A stretch of 58,182 bases of DNA from an uncultured virus (IMG/VR IMGVR_UViG_3300028888_000072) (IMGVR_UViG_3300028888_000072:62001-120182), one strand, 5' to 3'; shown: positions 13,628 to 34,775, numbered from the stretch's first letter. Translations and numbers: made by a program. The notes: generated from the sequence alone by a model not told the origin.

Positions 13628-16600
13628 ATGCCAGAACCAGAATTAACAGTAAAAAAACATTTAGAAAATATTGATAATAATACTAAATCATTAGGCAAAA
13701 CAATTAAGGTAAAAATGCCAAATAATAAAACTGAAGAAATTGATTTAATGCAATTATTACTTCAGGGTGTTGGAACTGCGCTTTTTGGAACATTTAAAAG
13801 AGATGAAGGTGGTCTCCAAAATTTATTTCAAAATACCGGTGTATCTTTATATAGTTTAGTAGAAAGTTCTGGAACATCTCTTAATAATATTAAAGAAAAA
13901 ATAGAAGATGTTTTACCAAATATTAAAACTGATGTTGCTGACATTAAACAAATTCTTTCAGATAATCTAATTAATAATTCTTCACAAAGTACACTTGATA
14001 TAGAAATAAAAGGAGGTAATATTGTTAAAGATTTAACTAAGTTTTCTGAAGTATTAGAGCGATATAATGGTACAGATCCATTAACTAATTTCTTAAATGC
14101 CATTAATGATTTAATCAAAATTGAAAAATTAGATTCTAGTTCACTTAATGAAAAGATTAAGACATTATATGATATTGTAAGTAATGATAAAGGAAAATCA
14201 TTTCAATCTCTTTTTAAAAAAATTAATGAATTAGCAGGATCTGTTAAAATTAATGAAAGTATAAAAAATATTTCTTATGCTATTAATGCTATTGTTTCAA
14301 TATTAAATATTAGTGAAATTAAAACAGATTCTTTATATAAGTTAGCTTTTTTAACTGATGACAGAGGACCTATTAGTATAATCATTAAAAATATAAGTAA
14401 ATTTTCTAAAATACCTAATGAAGTGCAAAAATCATTAGAAGCATTAGATGATTTATTTAAAGCTATCGTTACAGTAAGTAGCATTGGTTTTTTCCAACGT
14501 AAAAGAATGGCAAGTAATTTGCAATTCATTAATAATTATATTCTTAAGGAGTTACCTGCTGTATTTGATAATATAAAAACAGTAAGTGCATTAAGTAACG
14601 ATACAGTTAAATCAGTTGAAAACCTTGGAGAAATATTTAAATTGATTGTTGAAATTAGTGATTTGAAATTTAAGAAAAAAACAAGATTAATTGATAATCT
14701 TGATTTTATACAAAATGAATTATTAGAAAAAATAAAATCACTTATAATAAACTTATATGTATCAACAAATGAAATAACAAAAAATACAGATTCAATATTA
14801 GGTTCTTCACAAAATATTAAAAGTATATTAGATACATTTTTAGAAATTGCTAAAATAGATGATAAGGAAATAGATAACATTATATATTCAATAGAATACA
14901 TTAATGATGAAGTAATAGATTCTATTAAAAAATTATTAAAATCTATTGGCAACATAGATGTTAATGACAGTTTTGAAACAATTAAAAACATTAATTTTGT
15001 ATTTGAATCATTAAAAACAATATTCGACCAAATACCATCTTTTAAAAGTTTAATATTAAGTTCAATTAAACTATCTGCATTAAAAGGATTATTAGAATCT
15101 GAAGTAGTTAAAATTGTTGATATAATTATAAATTTACCAAGTATATCTTCTGTTAAGTTAGATATATTTTCTGAAGATTTACCTGAAATATTTTATGGAT
15201 TAAAATTAATTGATTCACAAATTAGTATAAAAGATTTTACAAAGATTCTAGCAAAATATGAATTCTTTAAACAGGAATTGACAATATTAGATGATATACT
15301 TAAGTATATTCGTACAATTGATGGTACAACAGAATTTGGAACAATAAAAGATAGTTTTATAAATGATATTGTAACTGGGTTATCTGAAATTGAAATTCAA
15401 TTGGATAAAATGGATTTTAAGCATGAATTAGAAAATTTTCAGGCTTTAATTGATGAGCTTACAATTATCAATAAAATTGTTGCAATTGATAAGATATTAG
15501 CTAAGAACATACAGAATATTGATTATGAATCTATAAAGGAATATATAGATAATGATCTTAAATTATTTGTTGAAATATTTACAACAAATCATGACATTGG
15601 AAAGAATATAACTAAATTAGTAAAATTAGATAAAAAGGATCTTGAAAATATAGATACATTAATTAGTGCATTTAAATCATTAAGTAAATTAACCAAAATA
15701 TCAATATCATCAAAATTAACTGAAGCTGGTATGAATGCTATGGAAAATGCAGTTGATAAGATGATAAAAATTGTTGATAAGATTAAAGAAGTTAAAAATT
15801 CTGATGTTGAAAAAGCTAAAGATTTCATTAAATCATTTATGATGATAATTGCTGCTTCTGGTGCAATAATGATTTTTGGCGCTTTATTAATGTCAAAAGT
15901 AAAAATTGCAGATTTAATATTATTTACTGTTTCATTAACATTTTTTGTAGGTTCTATATTATTTGCATTTAGGTTATTTGCTAAAGGAATTAAAAGTGAA
16001 TTAGAAGGAGCTAAAGATTGTTTAACATTAGTTGCTGGTGCAGGTTTAATAATGATATTAGGTTCATTAATTATTAATTTTATTGATCCTAACGATTTAT
16101 TGAAATTTACTATTACATTAGGTACTTTCTTATTTGCTATAGGTGCAGTATTTTTGTTAGTAGGAAAAGGATTTAGTAAGATTAGATCTGGTGCTGAACA
16201 TGCAATGATTATCGTTGTGGGATCTGCGTTAATTTTATTATTTGGCGCCATTGCATATCATTTCATTCCACTTAAAGATTTGACGGGATTTATATTTAAT
16301 TTAAGTTTCTTCATATTTGGAGTTAGTATGATATTATGGGCCGTATCAAAAGGATTAAAAAGTATTAAACGTTCATCTGAAGAATTTTTGATAATTGTTG
16401 CAGGCAGTGCATTAATAATGTTACTTGGTTCAATTGCATATCATTTTATTCCACTTAAAGATTTACTTGGATTTACAATAATGTTATCATTATTTATTGT
16501 TGGTGTAACATTACCATTTATATTCTTAAGTAAAAATAGTAAAAATGCATTTAAGGGTGCTGGAGAATTGGCTATACTTGTTTTAGTTTCTGCAGCTGTA

Positions 16601-19387
16601 TTATTATTAGGTGCTAAATTATTAAAACCTGAAGATTATTTAAATTTAATATTATTTGCAGTTGTTTTAACAGCATTTACATTTGCAATTGTATATGTTT
16701 ATAAGAAAGCATCTAAAGATGCACCACAGGCTATAATTGGTGCTATAGCAGTTGCATTATTAACAATTGTTGGTGGAGGTGTACTTTTATATGCTGGTAT
16801 GACTATTGCAAAAGATCCTGATATATTAATATATGCATTATTATTTGGCGCAGGATTATTAGCATATACATACCTTACAATACAGTTAGCTCAAATGGCA
16901 GCTAAAAATTCAAAAAATATTTGGACTGGTTTGGCAGCTATAGGGGGTGTATTATTAGTTACATACGCAGGTATAAAAGTTATTAATACATTATTAGAAA
17001 CATTTAATGGTGTAGATAAATGGACTCTGATTAAATCGTTAGTAAAAGGAGTTGCATCAATGTATGCAGTTATTATAGCTATAGGTGCTGGTGCTATTGG
17101 TTTAGGATTGGCTCTTACTGCAGAAACATTCGGTATAGGTGCTGCGGGTTTGGCTGCTGGTTTAGGTATTATTTGGTCAATAGCTGAAGTTACTGATGTT
17201 ACTATCGGTGTTATAGATCATATCTATAAAGTTATGCAAGGCATACCTGATGTTAAGAAAGTTGAAACAGATATGGTTGCAGCAATAGGAGTTATTGCTT
17301 CAGTACAAGATGCAATAATTGAATCATTCAGTTTAAAGAAATCTGCTAAAATTGCTATATGTTCTAAAGTATTTAAAGAAACTGCAATTATGCTTAGTGA
17401 AATTGGTAAAGCACTTAAAGACTGGGCTGATTTAAAGATCGTTTCACAATATGATTCAAAAGGAAATCCAACAGCATATCTTTCATTAGGTTCAAGTGAT
17501 TTTACACAAGCTGCAAATAATATTAAAGCTGTGTTACTTGCATTAGGTACAGCTATTGTTGAAACATATGATGCTGCACAAGGAAAAGGAATATTTGATG
17601 ATCCAACTGGATTAGGATTATTAGATACACCATTTGCAAGAGTTGTTAAAGCAATGAAATACACTGGTCCAATGCTTACTTCAATAGCACAAGGAATTAA
17701 GGAATGGGCAGATCTTAAAATTGTATCTAAATATGATAAAGATGGTAATCCTATTGAATACATGGCTTTAGGAGATGGTGATTTTACAAAAGCTGCAAAG
17801 AATATTAAAGATGTATTAGTCGCAATAGGTAATGCTATAGTTGAAGTTACTAAAGATCGTCCAGATTTATTTGGCGAAGGTATTTTTACAGATTCACCAG
17901 CAGTTAATGCTGCTAAAGCAATGAAATTAATGGGTGATGTATTAAGTACTACTGCACAAGCAGTTAGTTGTTATGCATCAGGAAGATTTCCAATATATGA
18001 TAAAGAAGGAAAAATTGTTGATTATAATATTGTAGGGGATGGTGATATTGTATCTGCAAAAGAAAAGATTAAAGCTGTTCTTACTGCTTTAGGTGAATCT
18101 ATAACAGATGTCGTTAAAGATCCTGCTAATAAAGATATATTCAGTGATGGTATGATAACTGATTCTCCTGCTATAGTTGCAGCTAAAGCTATGGAAGGAA
18201 TGGCTAATGCTATTGATAAAATGGTTGATATTATGACCAAGTTTAAAGATTTGAATTTGGAAGAAATCAATTTAGAAAGCGTTAAAGAAAAAATAGCAGG
18301 ATTACTTGGTGATACATTAGCAATCATGAGATTATTCATGGCTCCTAAAGGTGAAGCAAGAAAAGGATTATGGGGTTGGACAAAATCATTATTTTGTGGT
18401 ACACAATCTGTTGGTGATTATATAAATGAAAACATGGAAGATGTCACTAAAGCTACAGAAAATATTGGAAAACTCGTTGAAGCTGTTGTTGGTGTAATTA
18501 ATAAGATATCATCAATTGGAGAAATCATAATAAAGAATAATGAAAATCTTGCAATTATATATGATGCTTCATTTGGATCTAAACTTCAAAACTTATTTGG
18601 TGTAATTAGTTTAATTGATAAAGCAGTAAATGAAGTTAAAGTAGAAAATAAAGATGATCTGTTTGATTTATTTAGTTCATATACAGATATATTAGATACA
18701 TTAGTTAAATGTGTAAATGATTTTGATTCTGATTCTGTAACATATCTTGATTTACTTGAAAAAGGAATTATTAAATTATATTCTACAACATCAAAAATAG
18801 AAAACATTGCTGCATTTAAAGAATATGTAGCTGATGTTAAAAGTTTTGTTGAAGCTATTAATTCATTAGATATCAATAAACTTTCATCAATGAATAGCTT
18901 AACAGAATCATTAAATAAGTTGGCAAGTAAACTTGGTAATATGGATGATTTAGTTGATGTATTGGCTAATAAAGTTACAATGGTATTATTAGAATTGGTT
19001 AATCAATTGAATCATGCTGAAAGAGTTATTAAGAATGCTCATGAATTACAAAATAGACGTAAGAAACTTATTGAAGAATCTGTTCATAAAGTTAAGGAAA
19101 TAATGAAACAGAATATGATTGTTAAAGTTGGTAAGCTTGAAGAATCACAATTAGGAAAACCTTCAGTCGGTTCAACGAGTGGTGGTACTGAAAGTGGAAG
19201 TGGTTCATCTGAAGGAAGCACACCTGAATTAGAGTCTCCAGAAGAAACTCCAGTAAATAATAAAGATAAGAATGATGTAAGTAATATTTCTAAACCAACT
19301 AAAAACGAATCATATTTTGAAAAACCTCTTACTGCTGAAGAATTTAACCAAATGATGCGTGATCATATGAAAGGATGGACTGGATAA
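13628..19387 (+). CDS. Probable tail tape measure protein
   Basis: 1919 aa, mostly helical; central hydrophobic 61-aa repeats and C-terminal 94-aa repeats; lies just upstream of the gp3-like tail gene. Confidence 0.65.
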   Translation: MPEPELTVKKHLENIDNNTKSLGKTIKVKMPNNKTEEIDLMQLLLQGVGTALFGTFKRDEGGLQNLFQNTGVSLYSLVESSGTSLNNIKEKIEDVLPNIKTDVADIKQILSDNLINNSSQSTLDIEIKGGNIVKDLTKFSEVLERYNGTDPLTNFLNAINDLIKIEKLDSSSLNEKIKTLYDIVSNDKGKSFQSLFKKINELAGSVKINESIKNISYAINAIVSILNISEIKTDSLYKLAFLTDDRGPISIIIKNISKFSKIPNEVQKSLEALDDLFKAIVTVSSIGFFQRKRMASNLQFINNYILKELPAVFDNIKTVSALSNDTVKSVENLGEIFKLIVEISDLKFKKKTRLIDNLDFIQNELLEKIKSLIINLYVSTNEITKNTDSILGSSQNIKSILDTFLEIAKIDDKEIDNIIYSIEYINDEVIDSIKKLLKSIGNIDVNDSFETIKNINFVFESLKTIFDQIPSFKSLILSSIKLSALKGLLESEVVKIVDIIINLPSISSVKLDIFSEDLPEIFYGLKLIDSQISIKDFTKILAKYEFFKQELTILDDILKYIRTIDGTTEFGTIKDSFINDIVTGLSEIEIQLDKMDFKHELENFQALIDELTIINKIVAIDKILAKNIQNIDYESIKEYIDNDLKLFVEIFTTNHDIGKNITKLVKLDKKDLENIDTLISAFKSLSKLTKISISSKLTEAGMNAMENAVDKMIKIVDKIKEVKNSDVEKAKDFIKSFMMIIAASGAIMIFGALLMSKVKIADLILFTVSLTFFVGSILFAFRLFAKGIKSELEGAKDCLTLVAGAGLIMILGSLIINFIDPNDLLKFTITLGTFLFAIGAVFLLVGKGFSKIRSGAEHAMIIVVGSALILLFGAIAYHFIPLKDLTGFIFNLSFFIFGVSMILWAVSKGLKSIKRSSEEFLIIVAGSALIMLLGSIAYHFIPLKDLLGFTIMLSLFIVGVTLPFIFLSKNSKNAFKGAGELAILVLVSAAVLLLGAKLLKPEDYLNLILFAVVLTAFTFAIVYVYKKASKDAPQAIIGAIAVALLTIVGGGVLLYAGMTIAKDPDILIYALLFGAGLLAYTYLTIQLAQMAAKNSKNIWTGLAAIGGVLLVTYAGIKVINTLLETFNGVDKWTLIKSLVKGVASMYAVIIAIGAGAIGLGLALTAETFGIGAAGLAAGLGIIWSIAEVTDVTIGVIDHIYKVMQGIPDVKKVETDMVAAIGVIASVQDAIIESFSLKKSAKIAICSKVFKETAIMLSEIGKALKDWADLKIVSQYDSKGNPTAYLSLGSSDFTQAANNIKAVLLALGTAIVETYDAAQGKGIFDDPTGLGLLDTPFARVVKAMKYTGPMLTSIAQGIKEWADLKIVSKYDKDGNPIEYMALGDGDFTKAAKNIKDVLVAIGNAIVEVTKDRPDLFGEGIFTDSPAVNAAKAMKLMGDVLSTTAQAVSCYASGRFPIYDKEGKIVDYNIVGDGDIVSAKEKIKAVLTALGESITDVVKDPANKDIFSDGMITDSPAIVAAKAMEGMANAIDKMVDIMTKFKDLNLEEINLESVKEKIAGLLGDTLAIMRLFMAPKGEARKGLWGWTKSLFCGTQSVGDYINENMEDVTKATENIGKLVEAVVGVINKISSIGEIIIKNNENLAIIYDASFGSKLQNLFGVISLIDKAVNEVKVENKDDLFDLFSSYTDILDTLVKCVNDFDSDSVTYLDLLEKGIIKLYSTTSKIENIAAFKEYVADVKSFVEAINSLDINKLSSMNSLTESLNKLASKLGNMDDLVDVLANKVTMVLLELVNQLNHAERVIKNAHELQNRRKKLIEESVHKVKEIMKQNMIVKVGKLEESQLGKPSVGSTSGGTESGSGSSEGSTPELESPEETPVNNKDKNDVSNISKPTKNESYFEKPLTAEEFNQMMRDHMKGWTG

Positions 19388-25024: not shown

Positions 25025-25052
25025 TTGAATATTTCTGGGCTTTTACTATATT
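25025..25052 (+). promoter_or_regulatory. Putative early promoter TTGAA-N16-CTATATT overlapping a terminator-like hairpin
   Basis: Exact motif; hairpin AGCTCAGAAGTAT...ATATTTCTGGGCT plus TTT overlaps it. Confidence 0.65.
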
Positions 25053-28677: not shown

Positions 28678-28818
28678 ATGACAAATAAAGAAAAAATTGA
28701 TTTAATACGATATGCAATTAGTTTAGTTGGAGATGGTGGACCAGACCCATTAACAACAAAAGAAAGAATTATAATAAATGATTTTTTAAATGAATTAGAA
28801 AATAAATATTATGTATAA
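28678..28818 (+). CDS. Small hypothetical protein (46 aa), not in ORF track
   Basis: MTNKEKIDLIRYAISLVGDGGPDPLTTKERIII...; overlaps the rtcB start. Confidence 0.5.
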   Translation: MTNKEKIDLIRYAISLVGDGGPDPLTTKERIIINDFLNELENKYYV

Positions 28819-30142
28819 AATAATTGGTAAATACACATCAGCATTAGTTACTAATAACAATATTGAACAAGAAGCTGTTCAACAAATTCATAGTATTGTT
28901 AATTGTAAGGCTTATGAAGGTTGTAAAATCGTAATTCAACCAGATTCTCACTGTGGAAAGGGGTCAGTCATTGGTTTTTGTTCAACTTTTGGAAAATACA
29001 TTGATCCAAGAACAGTAGGGGTTGATATCGGTTGTGAAATTTCTATGCATCTTTATGATAGACCAATTCCTGAAGATAAGTATGCAGAATTGAATCATAA
29101 GATTCTTAAGGAATGTGGTTGGGGATTTAATTTGTCTCCTAAGAAGATGTATGAAGACAAAGAGCTTTATAAGTTTATGTCTACAGAATTTAGAAAGGCA
29201 AAGTCAAGACATCCAGAAATTTTTGCAGAACTTCCAGATACAGTAACCGAGAAGTGGGTATCTGATATGCTTAATCGTTTAGGAATGGATCCTAAGACAT
29301 GGTATTATTCAATTAATAGCTTTGGTGGAGGTAATCATTATTGTGAATATGATGTTAATGAAGAGAATAATCTTTATGGAATAACTGTTCACTGCGGTTC
29401 TCGTAATTTTGGTGTTAAGGTTTGTAAGTATTGGGAAAACAAGTCAAAAGGCGCAGCTCTTTCAAAATCTGAGATAAAAGAATATACAACAGAATTTAAG
29501 AAGAAGTATATTGAAGAGCATGGAAGAAAAAACATGGAAGGCTTTAAGGATGCTCTTAAAAAATATCTTGATACAAAAACAGAAGGTCATATTGAAGGAT
29601 TTTTAACAGGTGACAATATGCTTGGATATTTTTGTGATATGTACACTGCAAGAACATATGCACGATTCAATCATATTATTCTTCATCGTACAATTGATAA
29701 TATAGTTGCAAAGTATGGATGTAAGATGACTAAGGAAATCATATCCACACATAACTATATTGATTTTGATGAAGATATACCTATTATTCGTAAGGGTGCA
29801 ATTCGTTCATATGCTGGTGAGGAGATTCTTGTACCTTTTAATATGAGAGATGGTGTTGCAATCTGTGAGGGACTTTCAAATTCAGATTGGTTAAATTCTT
29901 GTGCACACGGAGCCGGCCGAAAGATGTCACGTTCTAAGGCAAAGCAGAATATTTCAATGAAAGAATTTGAAAAGACTATGGAGGGTATTTATTCAACTAC
30001 AGTTTGTAAGGCAACACTTGATGAGTCACCTATGGCTTACAAGGACACAACTGAGATTAAAGACTTGATTACAGAGACATGTAAGATTAAGTTTATGATG
30101 ATTCCTAAGATCAATATTAAAGCTGCAGATGGTGGAGATTGA
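28811..30142 (+). CDS. rtcB: RtcB family 3'-phosphate/2',3'-cyclic phosphate RNA ligase
   Basis: QPDSHCGKG, VGVDIGC, SFGGGNHY, VHCGSRN, HNY, RKGA, SCAHGAGR, LDESPMAYK. Confidence 0.95.
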   Translation: MYKIIGKYTSALVTNNNIEQEAVQQIHSIVNCKAYEGCKIVIQPDSHCGKGSVIGFCSTFGKYIDPRTVGVDIGCEISMHLYDRPIPEDKYAELNHKILKECGWGFNLSPKKMYEDKELYKFMSTEFRKAKSRHPEIFAELPDTVTEKWVSDMLNRLGMDPKTWYYSINSFGGGNHYCEYDVNEENNLYGITVHCGSRNFGVKVCKYWENKSKGAALSKSEIKEYTTEFKKKYIEEHGRKNMEGFKDALKKYLDTKTEGHIEGFLTGDNMLGYFCDMYTARTYARFNHIILHRTIDNIVAKYGCKMTKEIISTHNYIDFDEDIPIIRKGAIRSYAGEEILVPFNMRDGVAICEGLSNSDWLNSCAHGAGRKMSRSKAKQNISMKEFEKTMEGIYSTTVCKATLDESPMAYKDTTEIKDLITETCKIKFMMIPKINIKAADGGD

Positions 30143-30487: not shown

Positions 30488-30779
30488 AATTATATATTCT
30501 TTAATATTAAGTTTATTTGGATGTTTTAAAGATACTAAATATGTTAAGCACCCGTATTATCCTTTACTTAATACAAATGAATATGGATATATTGTTCTAG
30601 AATATAGACGAACATGGAAAAATCCAGATCATTGGGAATATGTTTTAACATATCATAAAAGTGAATGGGAATATGAAATAAAAAAATCAATATCAATATG
30701 TGGTCACCCATTATATGAATTTGAAAACACAATTTATGAAGAAAGCACTGAAGGTTATTCAGATGTAGGTTGGGATTAA
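30474..30779 (+). CDS. Hypothetical protein with possible lipoprotein signal
   Basis: MKIVKIIYSLILSLFGC. Confidence 0.55.
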   Translation: MKIVKIIYSLILSLFGCFKDTKYVKHPYYPLLNTNEYGYIVLEYRRTWKNPDHWEYVLTYHKSEWEYEIKKSISICGHPLYEFENTIYEESTEGYSDVGWD

Positions 30780-30783
30780 GATT

Positions 30784-31119
30784 ATGGAACAGACAAAATA
30801 TTTTTTAGAAAAGAATGGTGAATATAAAGAAATTGTCTTAAATATAGATAATTGGTTTTATGTTCAAATGAATGCTTCTATTAGGTTTGCATTTATGAAG
30901 TATCATATGAAGTTACCTGAGAATGTTATCATTAAAGATTGTAAACATTGGATGTTCATTACAATTATTCGTCCTAATTTGAATTCTTTTGATGAGATAA
31001 TATCTTGGGAAAACAATCAATTATGTGTATTAGATGAACTGGATAATCATGCAGCAGCTAATTCCACAACTGAAGAAGATACTGAAGATTGGGTACAATA
31101 TAAATTTGAAATTATTTAA
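30784..31119 (+). CDS. Hypothetical protein
   Basis: Operon-packed ORF. Confidence 0.6.
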   Translation: MEQTKYFLEKNGEYKEIVLNIDNWFYVQMNASIRFAFMKYHMKLPENVIIKDCKHWMFITIIRPNLNSFDEIISWENNQLCVLDELDNHAAANSTTEEDTEDWVQYKFEII

Positions 31120-31122
31120 GAT

Positions 31123-31428
31123 ATGATATATTATATTTTTTTAGTATGCGTATATTTAGCAATGGGTAGGTTTCTTGGTTTTGAAATCTATAGAAACGAT
31201 TTTATTTATTTACTTATTGATAATAAACTTGTTAAATATGAAAGTAAGCATTATTTTGGTGAAGCAAAAGAATATGAACAAAATATAAGTCCTAAATGGT
31301 TCAGAAATATTTTACGAGTTGTTTCTATTCTTATTTGGCCAATATCATTCTTTATATATTTTTGGTGTTTGGTATTTTGGGTTTGCAGATATTTTACTAT
31401 TGCATTTATTAAATTCTTTACAGATTAA
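31123..31428 (+). CDS. Two-TM membrane protein (WP motif)
   Basis: Hydrophobic N- and C-termini; ILIWPI. Confidence 0.65.
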   Translation: MIYYIFLVCVYLAMGRFLGFEIYRNDFIYLLIDNKLVKYESKHYFGEAKEYEQNISPKWFRNILRVVSILIWPISFFIYFWCLVFWVCRYFTIAFIKFFTD

Positions 31429-31432
31429 AATT

Positions 31433-31460
31433 TTGAATATAATATAAATTTTACTATATT
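31433..31460 (+). promoter_or_regulatory. Putative early promoter TTGAA-N16-CTATATT driving the tRNA-like RNA
   Basis: Exact motif ending 13 nt before the acceptor stem. Confidence 0.7.
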
Positions 31461-31473
31461 TAATTATAACGAT

Positions 31474-31590
31474 GGAGTAGTGGCGCAATGGTAGACGCAC
31501 GGAGGCATCCGATTCGCGGTTCGAGTCCGCAAGTAGGTAGGCATACCGAAACAAAGGAAAAGAATGAAGGTTCGACCCCTTCCTGCTCCA
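31474..31590 (+). ncRNA. Atypical tRNA-like RNA with no anticodon loop and two T-arms
   Basis: Acceptor GGAGTAG/CTGCTCC plus A; D-arm GCG-CAATGGTAGA-CGC; CGGA-GGCA-TCCG; T-arm GCGG-TTCGAGT-CCGC; GGTA-GGCA-TACC; T-arm GAAGG-TTCGACC-CCTTC. Confidence 0.8.
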
Positions 31591-31599
31591 CAAAAATAA

Positions 31600-32019
31600 A
31601 TGAATATGAGTACAGAATACAAAATTATTTTTAGGGGTGCATCATATGAAACACGAGCTATAGAAGTATATCTTCCAAAGTATAAGCATTCACAATGGAT
31701 TGTTAGGCATCCCGTTAGTTCTAAATATCTTTTTGGATTTACATCAGATGAATTCTGGAGATCACATCCTGAATTGAAAAAAGAATTTGATAAAATATGT
31801 CATGATATTGCAATTAAGCATCTTAGTTTTGTTGTAGGATGGGATTTCAGAGAAGAAGGAATAAATGATTATAAATGGTGGAGTTATGCTGTTAAAGAAT
31901 GGAATGATGAAGGATATATTAAATTAACTGATGAGGAATTCAATATTGCATTAAAATCATTTTATAATAAATATACAAGAGAAAAAGGTAAACGTGTTTT
32001 TCAATTTATAGAACAATGA
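31600..32019 (+). CDS. Hypothetical protein
   Basis: Starts 9 nt after the tRNA-like RNA. Confidence 0.65.
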   Translation: MNMSTEYKIIFRGASYETRAIEVYLPKYKHSQWIVRHPVSSKYLFGFTSDEFWRSHPELKKEFDKICHDIAIKHLSFVVGWDFREEGINDYKWWSYAVKEWNDEGYIKLTDEEFNIALKSFYNKYTREKGKRVFQFIEQ

Positions 32020-32459
32020 ATTATACTGGTTTAACTTTCACAATAGTTTTTGCAACTTGTATTATTGTTGCACTTATACAATGTTATCAATGTGAGAAAC
32101 AACATGCAATTGAATATAATGCAAAAAGACCTGAAAATATACCAATTGAACTTAGGGCATATAAAGATACATTTGGAATAACTGATAAAGAATTTATAAG
32201 TGCACTCCCATATTGTTTAGAATATAAAGAAAAGAATAAAGAATATTGGAATTCTATACGAATGTTTCAAGAAACTAATCCATTAGATAAAAATGATAAG
32301 AATACATTATCTAGAATTGCTATTAAAGATAAGGAAGATTTAGAAAAATGGAAATCTAGATTAAAGACTTTAAAAGATATTCAAGATTTCAAAAATAAAC
32401 AGGAAGTTGTAATGAAACTGTGGGAAGAAAAAGAAACTAATAAAAATTGTATATATTAA
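32016..32459 (+). CDS. Hypothetical protein with N-terminal TM/signal segment
   Basis: GLTFTIVFATCIIVALI. Confidence 0.65.
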   Translation: MNYTGLTFTIVFATCIIVALIQCYQCEKQHAIEYNAKRPENIPIELRAYKDTFGITDKEFISALPYCLEYKEKNKEYWNSIRMFQETNPLDKNDKNTLSRIAIKDKEDLEKWKSRLKTLKDIQDFKNKQEVVMKLWEEKETNKNCIY

Positions 32460-33116
32460 ATGAAATATCCTAGAACATATCATTTACCATATTCTCCTGG
32501 GGCTACTAAAGATGATAAGAAGCTCCAGGATGGTTGGTTTAAAAACTATATAGGGCAGGAGATTGTTATAACTGCTAAGCTTGATGGTGAAAACATTCAT
32601 ATGAATCAAAAAGATTGTTATGCAAGATCTGATGGCGCTCCTACACGTTCTCCATGGTCACGAAATATATGGGACCCACAAGAAGGTCTTTATTGGAAAA
32701 TTAAACAGTTTATTGGAGAAGATGAAACTATTTATGGTGAAAATCTTTATGGTGAACATTCAATTCATTATAATAAGTTAACTGATTATTTTCATTTATT
32801 TGCTGTTAATGATAATGTTAATTGGTATTCATGGGATGATGTTAAAATGATGGCAGACATTATGAATATTCCTACTGTTCCTGAATTATGGAGAGGAAGA
32901 ATTTATAATGAAAATGAATTACAGAAATTAGTTGAAAAATATGTGCATGAATCTGAATGGTATGGAGATATACGTGAAGGAGTAGTAGTAAGAAGAACAG
33001 ATTCATTTAAGATTGAAGATTTTTCTAAATATGTTTGCAAGTGGGTACGCAAGGATCATGTGACTACAGATGAGCATTGGACAAAGAATTGGAAGAAAGC
33101 AGAATTAATTAAATGA
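32460..33116 (+). CDS. ATP-dependent RNA ligase (Rnl2-like adenylation domain, KYPRT family)
   Basis: KYPRTYHLPYSPG, motif I KLDGEN, IYGENLY, FHLFAV, REGVVVR, CKWVRKDHV. Confidence 0.9.
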   Translation: MKYPRTYHLPYSPGATKDDKKLQDGWFKNYIGQEIVITAKLDGENIHMNQKDCYARSDGAPTRSPWSRNIWDPQEGLYWKIKQFIGEDETIYGENLYGEHSIHYNKLTDYFHLFAVNDNVNWYSWDDVKMMADIMNIPTVPELWRGRIYNENELQKLVEKYVHESEWYGDIREGVVVRRTDSFKIEDFSKYVCKWVRKDHVTTDEHWTKNWKKAELIK

Positions 33117-33920: not shown

Positions 33921-34404
33921 AGAAAGAATACAAAACATTAAGACATTATTAAAATATTGTCCAGTTGCAACTGATGAAGTAATGATTACTGATGAAGTTT
34001 GTAAAAAATTCTTTGGTAAATTTTTTTCAAGTCAACCTGAAAGATTTAAAAAACCTGAATTTGATGAATGTAGAGTTCAAATAGAATTAATAGATATACT
34101 TGATAAAGATGTTCGGACAAAACATTATACTGTAAGTTTACGATATTGCTATAATTGGGATAGAGAAGGGGAAGATTGGACTTTTTATTATTTTAATGAT
34201 CCAGAATGTTATTATAGAGAATGGCAGCATCCCGAATTAGAATATTCAGAAATTCCAGATAAAATTTGGGAAAGAATACAAAATATTCTTTATGATAAAG
34301 CAACAGAACATATTAACAAAGAATTAGAAGAAGCTAAATCTTCAGTTAAATATTGGGAAAATAAAAGGGAAGAATTTGATAATAAAATTAAATTAAATAA
34401 ATGA
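33910..34404 (+). CDS. Hypothetical protein
   Basis: Operon-packed ORF. Confidence 0.65.
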   Translation: MKIEERIQNIKTLLKYCPVATDEVMITDEVCKKFFGKFFSSQPERFKKPEFDECRVQIELIDILDKDVRTKHYTVSLRYCYNWDREGEDWTFYYFNDPECYYREWQHPELEYSEIPDKIWERIQNILYDKATEHINKELEEAKSSVKYWENKREEFDNKIKLNK

Positions 34405-34775
34405 AACAAGAAAAAGACACATTATTGACTCGTGAAGAGTTTAAGAAGCAAGTATTTGCAAGAACTGATGGGAAGTGTTGTGTCCCAGGATGTTCTTGTA
34501 AAGCTGTTGATGCGCATCATATAATGGATCGTAAACTTTGGAAAGATGGTGGTTATTATATTTCAAATGGTGCTGCTCTTTGTGAGAAACATCATCTTGA
34601 TGCTGAGCATGGAATTATAACACCAAAACAATGTTTAGATTATATGGGAATTAAACTTACTGATATTAAAGTTCCTGATACTATTAAAGAAAGATATAAA
34701 AATAAGATTATAAATTTTAAAGATTTTTATATTACATTAATGTTAGATTCATTAATTAATAAATGGGGAGAATAA
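34401..34775 (+). CDS. HNH endonuclease
   Basis: RTDGKCCVPGC...DAHHI...GG...SNGAALCEKHH. Confidence 0.85.
   Translation: MKQEKDTLLTREEFKKQVFARTDGKCCVPGCSCKAVDAHHIMDRKLWKDGGYYISNGAALCEKHHLDAEHGIITPKQCLDYMGIKLTDIKVPDTIKERYKNKIINFKDFYITLMLDSLINKWGE

What the first reader, a model, noticed from the sequence alone, without database searches (positions are those of the whole stretch)
31474..31590. Anticodon-less, double-T-arm tRNA mimic with its own promoter
Seen: a GC-rich 117-nt island in AT-rich DNA folds as a tRNA. It has a 7-bp acceptor (GGAGTAG 31474-80 / CTGCTCC 31583-89, one U-G pair, discriminator A), U8, and a Leu/Ser-like D-arm containing GG. The anticodon arm is replaced by a 4-bp stem with a GNRA tetraloop (CGGA-GGCA-TCCG). 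Next come a first T-arm (GCGG-TTCGAGT-CCGC), a second GGCA-capped hairpin (GGTA-GGCA-TACC), an A-rich linker, and a second canonical T-arm (GAAGG-TTCGACC-CCTTC). The two modules have different stem sequences yet both pair fully, which argues for selection on structure rather than decay. CCA is not encoded (ACAA). A perfect early-promoter motif ends 13 nt upstream. Inference: a non-decoding tRNA mimic that might titrate elbow-binding host factors (anticodon nucleases, tRNA-targeting toxins, RNase P, synthetases) while offering no cleavable anticodon.
Basis: partly seen in the sequence, partly recalled or inferred. Interest (0 to 1): 0.85.

Follow-up and report, generated by a model that had tools for sequence, protein, structure and literature searches.

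The report
Anticodon-less two-elbow tRNA mimic of phages
This is a real, conserved phage gene for a 117-base RNA with the ends and elbow of a leucine tRNA, no anticodon and a second tRNA-like elbow nested inside it, so it cannot decode and most likely acts as a tRNA look-alike.

Summary
Window 31474-31590 (+) has a 7-bp acceptor stem, a tRNA-Leu-like D-arm, a 4-bp GGCA-capped stub in place of the anticodon arm, a first T-arm, a second GGCA hairpin, an A-rich linker, a second T-arm and discriminator A. One detail is wrong: GGCA is not a GNRA loop.

It is not a decayed or chimeric tRNA. I found 50 full-length homologues (39 distinct) in phage and metagenome contigs with the same layout. All five core helices pair in at least 94% of cells, and 17 of 25 predicted pairs show compensatory changes. 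The linker is a second D-loop-like element; GG is kept in 39 of 39 distinct sequences. A short helix may close T-arm 1, hairpin 2 and this loop into a nested, YrlA-like permuted tRNA domain. Rfam matches only tRNA, at 31-40 bits, with about 60 nt in place of the anticodon arm. ARAGORN calls nothing.

Distant members lie inside phage tRNA arrays. The window's clade sits among RtcB, RNA-ligase and phosphoesterase genes. Four close relatives of this phage lack the element.

The function is inferred: a non-decoding tRNA mimic, either a decoy or an anticodon-independent LeuRS substrate. It is a new variant of a known kind, and I found it in no paper and in no Rfam 15 family.

The parts
31433..31462 (+). 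Promoter-like motif (TTGAAT, 16 nt, TATATT; contains TTTACTATAT at 31450-59). It ends about 12-14 nt before the RNA.
   Evidence: Sigma-70-type scan scores it 9 of 12. The same composite motif occurs at 25025, 27811 and 56840. The upstream sequence is conserved in L327, L337, L339 and L309 but not in L334, L336, L330, L359 or L314.
31474..31590 (+). The RNA gene: 117 nt, from acceptor 5' end to discriminator A.
   Evidence: RF00005 scores 33 bits over the full model. CM R1 homologues score 45-155 bits.
31474..31480 (+). Acceptor stem, 5' strand. It pairs with 31583-31589.
   Evidence: 98.5% of cells are paired, and 6 of 7 pairs have changes on both sides.
31483..31498 (+). D-arm: a 3-bp stem and a loop CAAUGGUAGA with GG. 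It is tRNA-Leu-like.
   Evidence: helix 2: 95.3% of cells paired. It resembles the D-arms of co-resident phage tRNA-Leu genes.
31500..31511 (+). Hairpin 1: a 4-bp stem capped by GGCA, in the position of the anticodon arm.
   Evidence: 100% of cells are paired, and 3 of 4 pairs have changes on both sides. The loop is GGCA in 38 of 39 distinct sequences, and the metagenome pattern did not ask for it.
31512..31515 (+). Possible junction helix, 5' strand (AUUC). It pairs with GAAU at 31562-31565.
   Evidence: The outer two pairs form in 39 of 39 and 37 of 39 distinct sequences. The inner two form only in the window's clade. Overall 66% of cells are paired.
31516..31530 (+). T-arm 1: GCGG, UUCGAGU, CCGC.
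   Evidence: 100% of cells are paired, and 2 of 4 pairs have changes on both sides. The loop sequence was required by the search patterns.
31536..31547 (+). Hairpin 2: a 4-bp stem capped by GGCA.
   Evidence: 94.4% of cells are paired, and 3 of 4 pairs have changes on both sides. AGGCAU was required by the search patterns.
31548..31561 (+). Linker acting as a second D-loop-like element (GG at 31556-57). It is degenerate in this copy.
   Evidence: GG is present in 39 of 39 distinct sequences. Close relatives carry CAAUGGUAGA here, and distant ones a small hairpin with a UGG loop (helices 6-7).
31562..31565 (+). Possible junction helix, 3' strand (GAAU).
31566..31582 (+). T-arm 2: GAAGG, UUCGACC, CCUUC. 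It stacks on the acceptor stem.
   Evidence: 99% of cells are paired, and 3 of 5 pairs have changes on both sides.
31583..31591 (+). Acceptor 3' strand, discriminator A (31590) and C74 (31591).
   Evidence: The discriminator is A in 38 of 39 distinct sequences. The base after it is C in all 50 loci listed.
28811..30142 (+). RtcB RNA ligase gene, a neighbour.
   Evidence: PF01139, E 1.5e-48. It lies upstream of the element in 5 loci of the window's clade.
32460..33116 (+). RNA ligase gene (nucleotidyltransferase domain), a neighbour.
   Evidence: PF09414, E 1.1e-23. A ligase cluster lies downstream of the element in 10 loci.
34401..34775 (+). HNH-like small protein. It matches the N-terminal part of a PHROG whose C-terminal part is the ligase.
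   Evidence: phrog_24030 positions 3-90, E 1.5e-24. It is a neighbour of the element in 5 loci (cluster 4).

Best explanation
Window 31474-31590 is a functional phage gene for a tRNA-Leu-derived, non-decoding RNA.

Shown by the data:
- The outer frame has a 7-bp acceptor stem, discriminator A followed by C, U8, a Leu-type D-arm and T-arm 2.
- The anticodon arm is replaced by a 4-5 bp stub capped by GGCA.
- The position of the long variable arm holds a nested module of T-arm 1, a GGCA-capped hairpin and a second D-loop-like GG element.

Inferred:
- The outer frame is the part of a tRNA that RNase P, 3' processing with CCA addition, and acceptor- or elbow-binding proteins recognise.
- The nested module probably forms a second tRNA elbow. 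Its domain order matches that of YrlA.
- The RNA is cut out and matured like a tRNA. It cannot read a codon.
- It acts by occupying proteins that recognise tRNA by acceptor end and elbow. The most likely role is as a decoy in phage-host conflict over tRNAs.
- The two nearly invariant GGCA loops are a second, sequence-specific contact.
For: Family:
- CM R1 finds the same architecture full-length in 9 of 9 viral loci.
- It finds it in 1 of 23 genome-contig pattern hits.
- It gives 50 hits at E <= 2e-9 over 71 sources, 39 of them distinct.

Structure:
- RNAalifold predicts 25 pairs, 17 with compensatory changes.
- 92.7% of cells are paired, against 72.4% in shuffles and 32-45% when partners are slid. 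The covariation score is 0.53 against 0.17, reached by 0 of 500 shuffles.

Features conserved although no search pattern asked for them:
- Hairpin-1 loop GGCA, 38 of 39.
- GG in the linker, 39 of 39.
- Discriminator A, 38 of 39.
- C after the discriminator in all 50 loci.
- U8, A14 and G18G19 are invariant in the 9-sequence alignment.

tRNA-like handling:
- 17 distinct-element loci carry same-strand tRNAs within about 2.5-3 kb. Several elements sit inside arrays of 8-16 tRNAs.
- Rfam matches only RF00005, at 31.6-40 bits.

Conflict context:
- RtcB, an RNA ligase, an HNH-like gene or a metallophosphoesterase flank the element in the window's clade.

Not an assembly artefact:
- The identical 117-nt sequence lies on 4 contigs with different flanks.
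- Contigs from RNA libraries X16 and X17 span 31467-31594 with 0-1 differences. This shows presence only and does not prove transcription.
Against: - No binding partner was identified, and no tool tests decoy action.
- Four close relatives of this phage (RtcB 74-92% identical; contigs estimated 8-68% complete) have no copy. The element is dispensable.
- The RNA-repair linkage is clade-specific. RtcB was found in 0 of 5 other element-bearing contigs and PF09414 in 2 of 5, including two contigs rated 100% complete.
- Folding energy is not exceptional.
- The T-loops and hairpin-2 loop look invariant partly because the search patterns required them.
- The junction helix is only partly supported.
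- In the window copy the second D-loop-like element is degenerate.
Confidence: 0.5

Rival explanations
1. The RNA is an anticodon-independent LeuRS substrate. It would be charged with leucine and serve as a non-ribosomal aminoacyl donor, or as a trap for LeuRS or EF-Tu.
For: - The family keeps the elements reported as critical for bacterial leucylation: A73, U8-A14, G18-U55, G19-C56 and an oriented variable arm.
- The anticodon arm, reported as dispensable for aminoacylation, is reduced to a stub (PMC2377443, passages read; conservation).
- The D-arm resembles co-resident phage tRNA-Leu genes. tRNA-Leu is the best D-arm match in 4 of 7 loci that hold a tRNA-Leu.
Against: - The acceptor stems differ from those of the phages' own tRNA-Leu genes.
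- A73 and these tertiary pairs are common to many tRNAs.
- The D-arm comparison is crude. In the other 3 of the 7 loci that hold a tRNA-Leu, another tRNA or tRNA-like gene matches better.
- Nothing here tests charging.
- The nested module may clash with the enzyme's reading of the variable arm.
Confidence: 0.2
2. The tRNA frame is only a processing and stability scaffold. The working part is the nested module with its two GGCA loops, or the element serves to punctuate and define the 5' end of the downstream mRNA.
For: - Single phages carry several RNAs with the same acceptor, D-arm and T-arm but different interiors, 79-123 nt long (L353, L326, L318, L281).
- In the window's clade an ORF starts 8-30 nt after the element in most of the 14 loci.
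- Both GGCA loops are nearly invariant while their stems covary.
Against: - One paralogue is simply a frame with a tetraloop stub and no nested module. This points to the frame itself as functional.
- In tRNA arrays there is no downstream ORF to regulate.
Confidence: 0.15
3. The RNA is a Y-RNA-like cofactor of RNA repair or decay that works with the neighbouring RtcB or RNA ligase.
For: - RtcB lies upstream in 5 loci and an RNA ligase downstream in 10 loci of the window's clade. In L334 RtcB is directly followed by the element, and in L327 the ligase follows directly.
- The inner order T-arm, capped stem, D-loop is that of YrlA (PMC4201824, passages read).
Against: - No YrlA match in Rfam at E <= 10.
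- No Pfam TROVE (Ro) match among the 71 window ORFs scanned.
- The 5' and 3' ends form an acceptor stem, not a Ro-binding stem.
- RtcB was found in 0 of 5 element-bearing contigs outside the clade.
- Relatives L002 and L003 keep RtcB and the ligase without the element.
Confidence: 0.1
4. The RNA is a decoding tRNA after unusual processing, such as excision of the inner part and re-ligation by RtcB.
For: - RtcB is a neighbour.
- About 44 extra nt lie where introns usually sit.
Against: - No sub-sequence yields a 5-bp stem with a 7-nt loop.
- Joining at the two GGCA loops gives strands that do not pair (read from the sequence).
- No joints appeared in 4 RNA-library runs, although contigs are poor evidence for this.
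- T-loop 1 varies at the position that would be purine 37 (A, G or U).
- Many members lie in phages without RtcB.
Confidence: 0.03
5. The element is a decayed tRNA, a fusion of two tRNA fragments, or an assembly chimera without function.
For: - It is absent from four close relatives.
- The MFE is not exceptional.
Against: 39 distinct homologues keep every helix through compensatory changes. Identical copies lie on independent contigs.
Confidence: 0.02

Closest known systems
Class II tRNA-Leu
   Same: 7-bp acceptor stem, A73, U8, a 3-bp D-stem with a UGGUAGA-type loop, a canonical T-arm, an extra arm between the anticodon position and the T-arm, a place in phage tRNA arrays, and a 3' end with C but no full CCA, like neighbouring tRNAs.
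   Different: There is no 7-nt anticodon loop, only a 4-5 bp stub with a tetraloop. The variable-arm position holds a branched module with a second T-arm. The length is 115-121 nt. ARAGORN does not call it.
YrlA bacterial Y RNA (tRNA-like domain)
   Same: It is a non-decoding tRNA mimic with T-arm, capped acceptor-like stem and D-arm in that order (PMC4201824). That paper cites a rationale for RtcA-RtcB operon organisation; the placement of Y RNAs in Ro-RtcB operons is recalled, from no call.
   Different: In YrlA the ends form a Ro-binding stem. Here they form an open acceptor stem with a discriminator. No Ro gene was found, and Rfam gives no YrlA hit.
tmRNA tRNA-like domain
   Same: It has an acceptor stem plus T-arm and lacks an anticodon. 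tmRNA is processed and charged like a tRNA (recalled).
   Different: There is no G3-U70 pair, no tag reading frame and no pseudoknots. ARAGORN finds no tmRNA, and the D-arm is complete.
Anticodon-arm-deleted tRNA-Leu tested in vitro
   Same: Deleting the whole anticodon stem-loop cost A. aeolicus LeuRS only a 2.5-fold loss of affinity. A73 and the D/T tertiary core were critical (PMC2377443). The family keeps those elements.
   Different: Those are laboratory constructs. This is a natural gene family with an added nested module, and charging is untested.
Double T-loop motif of T-box stem I, RNase P and the L1 stalk
   Same: Two T-loops occur in one RNA that deals with tRNA elbows (PMC3664808; search listing and abstract start only).
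   Different: That motif is made of two interdigitated pentanucleotide T-loops that dock a tRNA elbow. Here there are two full T-arms, each with a possible GG partner, which more likely form two elbows. This was not testable here.

Membership tests
tRNA (Rfam RF00005) | Score at or above the Rfam gathering threshold over the full model | tested here: met
   33.0 bits against 29 in a 351-nt search. Homologues score 31.6 and 40 bits. The hit was not listed in the whole-window gathering run.
tRNA (Rfam RF00005) | Anticodon arm: a 5-bp stem with a 7-nt loop carrying an anticodon | tested here: not met
   61 nt replace the 17-nt arm. The stub loop is 4 nt in 39 of 39 distinct sequences. ARAGORN gives no call.
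tRNA (Rfam RF00005) | Acceptor stem, D-arm and T-arm with G18G19 and a UUCRA T-loop | tested here: met
tRNA (Rfam RF00005) | Processing by RNase P, CCA addition and aminoacylation | not testable with these tools
   The only evidence is context in tRNA arrays and an invariant C after the discriminator.
tmRNA | tRNA-like ends with G3-U70, plus a tag reading frame and pseudoknots | tested here: not met
   ARAGORN finds no tmRNA. Pair 3-70 is A-U. 117 nt leaves no room for a tag frame.
YrlA / bacterial Y RNA | 5' and 3' ends form the Ro-binding stem, and the gene lies next to a Ro (TROVE) gene | tested here: not met
   The ends form an acceptor stem. No TROVE domain was found in the 71 window ORFs. 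No YrlA hit at E <= 10.
YrlA / bacterial Y RNA | Internal order of T-arm, capped acceptor-like stem, D-arm | tested here: inconclusive
   The order matches. The closing helix is only partly supported, at 66% of cells paired.
Substrate of bacterial LeuRS | A73, U8-A14, G18-U55, G19-C56 and an oriented variable arm (PMC2377443) | tested here: inconclusive
   The sequence elements are present and conserved. The orientation of the branched arm and actual charging cannot be tested.

The most novel reading that the evidence does not exclude
The RNA is a natural anticodon-less aminoacyl carrier. Host LeuRS would charge it without reading an anticodon. The phage would then have either a leucine donor that the ribosome cannot use, or a trap for LeuRS or EF-Tu. 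The nested second elbow and the two GGCA loops would recruit a further partner. It would also be the best-conserved member of a wider set of phage RNAs that place different inserts in one shared tRNA frame.
Probability: 0.2. Interest if true: 0.9.

Novelty: new variant of a known kind. Interest (0 to 1): 0.72.

Why it matters
Phage tRNA genes are usually read as codon-usage helpers or as replacements for tRNAs cut by host defences. This family shows selection on a tRNA shape that cannot decode at all.

- It has a duplicated elbow and two invariant loops.
- It recurs in jumbo phages from ruminant guts and in other metagenome contigs.
- It gives a concrete, small and easily synthesised RNA for testing three questions. 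Do phages use tRNA decoys against tRNA-directed immunity? Can an anticodon-less RNA be charged in nature? Do phages use the tRNA frame as a modular scaffold?
- tRNA finders miss it, so phage annotations under-count this class.

Tried and rejected
- Folding energy as evidence: z = -0.93, not informative.
- blastn of 30500-32500 against 50,697 GenBank phage records gave no match.
- Whole-genome search of the window's own contig: not held.
- Synteny with relatives L002-L005 shows no copy of the element. The slot between the orthologue of 30784-31119 and the ligase holds other small ORFs. CM R1 finds nothing in their whole contigs.
They became useful only after CM filtering.
- The AGUAG repeat at RNA positions 3-7 and 59-63 suggested an alternative acceptor pairing. 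It is not conserved in homologues, so I dropped it.
- Cutting at both GGCA loops and re-joining does not produce a paired anticodon-like stem (read from the sequence).
- The 139-aa ORF at 31600-32019 as a ligase paralogue: BLASTP E 0.064, so rejected. It has no relatives in viral contigs and no usable hit in the protein atlas.
- RNA-repair dependence of the whole family: RtcB in 0 of 5 and PF09414 in 2 of 5 other contigs.
- Read laying used contigs only, so it gives no ends, strand or level. The lack of cover over 31100-31440 in the RNA libraries, and of the element in X6, proves nothing. No joints were seen.
- D-arm isotype ranking is crude and mixed: tRNA-Leu is best in 4 of 7 loci.
- MAFFT misaligned hairpin 1 by one column, so I used CM-based alignments, which lean towards the model structure.
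- Paper searches found no description of a two-T-arm phage tRNA-like RNA. The supplements of PMC10690425, which list 10,006 candidate viral RNAs, were not read and might contain this motif.

Full report
**What is in the window.**
- It has a 7-bp acceptor stem with one U-G pair, then U8.
- The D-arm has a 3-bp stem and the loop CAAUGGUAGA.
- A 4-bp hairpin capped by GGCA (31500-11) comes next.
- A T-arm (31516-30) and a second GGCA-capped hairpin (31536-47) follow.
- Then come an A-rich 18-nt linker and a second T-arm (31566-82).
- It ends with the acceptor 3' strand and discriminator A, followed by CAA.

The element is 55% GC, against 22-31% across the window. ARAGORN finds no tRNA or tmRNA in the window. 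Rfam's gathering run on the whole window lists nothing. A sensitive run on 351 nt gives RF00005 tRNA at 33.0 bits (gathering 29, E 2.5e-5). That hit has 61 nt where the 17-nt anticodon arm belongs.

Two points in the finding need correction. GGCA is not GNRA. The fold is also not thermodynamically unusual: z = -0.93, and 40 of 200 shuffles fold as well. The conserved fold costs -33.3 to -33.8 kcal/mol against an MFE of -34.7.

**Where the window comes from.** It is part of a 254.6-kb viral contig. The DNA is AT-rich with densely packed small ORFs. It carries baseplate, helicase and methylase genes. DNA runs holding this stretch are labelled sheep, goat and bovine gut metagenomes, and 20 holder runs (14 of them DNA) come from 11 studies.

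**Homologues.**
- Four close relatives of the phage (RtcB 74-92% identical) have no copy at the syntenic place or anywhere on their contigs.
- Two loose pattern scans returned mostly chance hits. A covariance model of the window sequence (R1) picked three real relatives at about 49 bits.
- A tighter pattern found 9 viral loci, and all 9 match R1 full-length at 49-155 bits.
- The same pattern over one genome for each of 185,579 species gave 23 hits. Only one is real. It lies on a 47.5-kb contig of a MAG labelled Saprospirales, among tRNA genes.
- A metagenome scan used a pattern that did not ask for hairpin 1, the D-arm or the acceptor stem. It gave 64 loci, and 43 of them hold a full-length member at E <= 2e-9.
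- Others among those 64 loci are divergent GC-rich members (L329, L317), a cut copy (L361), or different RNAs.
- Alignment A5 holds 50 rows, 39 of them distinct.

**Structure.**
- RNAalifold on A5 recovers acceptor stem, D-stem, hairpin 1, T-arm 1, hairpin 2 and T-arm 2. It predicts 25 pairs, and 17 have compensatory double changes.
- On the named structure, 92.7% of cells pair, against 72.4% in shuffles and 32-45% when partners are slid. The covariation score is 0.53 against 0.17, reached by 0 of 500 shuffles.
- By helix, the share of cells paired is: acceptor 98.5%, hairpin 1 100%, T-arm 1 100%, hairpin 2 94.4%, T-arm 2 99%.
- A5 was fitted to the model, which favours its structure. Even so, the stems differ wholesale between clades.

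**Ascertainment.** The T-loops and the AGGCAU of hairpin 2 were required by my patterns, so their invariance is not evidence. Several features were not required and are still conserved:
- Hairpin-1 loop GGCA, 38 of 39 distinct sequences. The exception is GACA in L319. GC-rich outliers outside A5 also differ.
- GG in the linker, 39 of 39.
- Discriminator A, 38 of 39.
- C after the discriminator in all 50 loci.

**The linker is a second D-loop.** In close relatives (L359, L310, L330, L366) the linker contains AAUGGUAG (CAAUGGUAGA in L359 and L310), the core of the D-loop motif of the D-arm. In distant clades it is a small hairpin with a UGG loop whose stem covaries. The window copy has drifted to CAAAGGAAAAGAAU but keeps GG. 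Two T-loops therefore have two possible GG partners, which means two elbows.

**A possible junction helix.** The 4 nt before T-arm 1 can pair with the 4 nt before T-arm 2 (AUUC with GAAU in the window).
- The outer two pairs form in 39 of 39 and 37 of 39 distinct sequences, one of them with compensatory changes.
- The inner two pairs form only in the window's clade. Other clades may use a shifted register (my reading).
- If real, this helix closes T-arm 1, hairpin 2 and D-loop 2 into a module sitting where a class II tRNA has its long variable arm.
- The domain order of that module is T-arm, capped stem, D. This is the order described for the tRNA-like domain of YrlA (PMC4201824, passages).

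**Context.**
- In distant clades the element lies inside phage tRNA arrays on the tRNA strand. 17 distinct-element loci have same-strand tRNAs in their flanks.
- In the 14 loci of the window's clade there are no tRNAs nearby (for five of these loci: L309, L334, L359, L366, and earlier L279). Instead the neighbours are RNA-repair genes.
- RtcB lies upstream in 5 of those loci. An RNA ligase cluster lies downstream in 10. A metallophosphoesterase follows directly in 2. An HNH-like small protein neighbours the element in 5.
- This linkage is clade-specific. Outside the clade, RtcB was found in 0 of 5 and PF09414 in 2 of 5 element-bearing contigs, far from the element. Two of those contigs are rated 100% complete.
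- L002 and L003 keep RtcB and the ligase without the element.

**Promoter.** TTGAAT-N16-TATATT lies at 31433-60. The composite TTGAA...ACTATATT occurs four times on the + strand. By the coordinates, the sites at 25025, 27811 and 56840 lie between called ORFs. The motif is conserved upstream of the element in L327, L337, L339 and L309. Other clade members have different upstream sequence. An ORF starts 10 nt after the element, so co-transcription followed by processing is likely.

**Relation to tRNA-Leu and paralogues.**
- The D-arm resembles those of tRNA-Leu genes in the same arrays. It does not resemble tRNA-Ser or tRNA-Tyr.
- A crude ranking puts tRNA-Leu first in 4 of 7 loci that hold one.
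- The acceptor stems differ from those of the phages' own tRNA-Leu.
- Several phages carry further RNAs of 79-123 nt with the same acceptor stem, D-arm and T-arm as the element but different interiors. One has a 5-bp stub with a GUUA tetraloop and no nested module. The shared frame is therefore reused.

**Expression.** Contigs from RNA libraries X16 and X17 (two studies) span 31467-31594 with 0-1 differences. They run on into flanks that match relatives such as L309. Other contigs carry variant family members. These are contigs from libraries that may contain DNA. They show presence, not a transcript, its ends or its level. No joints were seen.

**Mechanism.** Shown: a conserved, structured, tRNA-framed RNA without an anticodon and with a duplicated T-arm and GG element. 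Everything that follows is inferred.
- Maturation like a tRNA is inferred from array membership, the acceptor stem with A73-C74, and the Rfam match.
- The RNA most likely acts as a tRNA look-alike that engages proteins recognising the acceptor end and elbow. I favour a decoy role in tRNA-directed conflict, given the repair-gene context in this clade and the accessory distribution.
- The main rival is charging by LeuRS. For A. aeolicus LeuRS, the anticodon arm was dispensable for aminoacylation, while A73 and the D/T core were critical (PMC2377443, passages). The family keeps those elements.
- Two further rivals remain open: a scaffold for the inner module, and a Y-RNA-like repair cofactor.
- A spliced decoding tRNA and a pseudogene are unlikely.

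**Novelty.** Rfam 15 has no family for this RNA other than a weak tRNA hit. Three paper searches found no description. The supplementary lists of PMC10690425 were not read. tRNA mimics are a known kind of RNA. This nested two-elbow, anticodon-less architecture appears to be a new variant.

Noticed in passing
L353 (1249-1371, 2704-2782, 4333-4427), L326:2204-2287, L318:974-1083, L281:2713-2807: These are RNAs of 79-123 nt with the same acceptor stem, D-arm and T-arm as the element in the same phage, but different interiors. One is a plain frame with a 5-bp stub and a GUUA tetraloop. ARAGORN labels some of them as tRNAs with 2- or 4-nt anticodons.
   Followed up: partly
L040:113-233, L128:136-225, L110:117-221, L311/L333/L367, L347/L369, L362: Other, unrelated-looking RNAs also have an acceptor stem and two T-arms within about 90-130 nt. 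Two-T-arm tRNA-like RNAs may therefore form a wider class.
   Followed up: partly
L321, L346, L370, L332/L348 (around the pattern match): An ordinary tRNA is followed directly by a conserved CAGGCAUUG...GGUAA... segment and another T-arm with an acceptor-like 3' strand.
   Followed up: no
L036:1501-1602 (contig G003, relative of the window's phage): A 102-nt RF00005 hit (34.8 bits) has 39 nt where the 13 central positions of the anticodon arm belong. It lies right after a tRNA-Glu and ARAGORN does not call it.
   Followed up: no
L009, L010, L026 (contigs G001, G002): Relatives carry a tRNA with anticodon CTA, which ARAGORN labels Pyl. This is a possible amber suppressor and hints at TAG recoding in this phage group.
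   Followed up: no
window 25025, 27811, 31433, 56840 (+): A recurrent composite motif, TTGAA then about 13-14 nt then ACTATATT. The element's own site (31433) lies in the gap before the RNA, and by ORF coordinates the other three lie in gaps between ORFs. It is a candidate phage promoter.
   Followed up: partly
window 32460-33116 and 34401-34775: These two ORFs match the C-terminal (ligase) and N-terminal (HNH-like) parts of one PHROG, phrog_24030. A protein that is fused elsewhere is therefore split here.
   Followed up: partly
window 13628-19387 (+): A 1919-aa ORF has no Pfam or PHROG match.
   Followed up: no
L036:1609-1700: A partial match (19.7 bits, E 0.082) to the 5' part of the Rfam DUF2693 RNA lies just downstream of the tRNA-like gene.
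   Followed up: no
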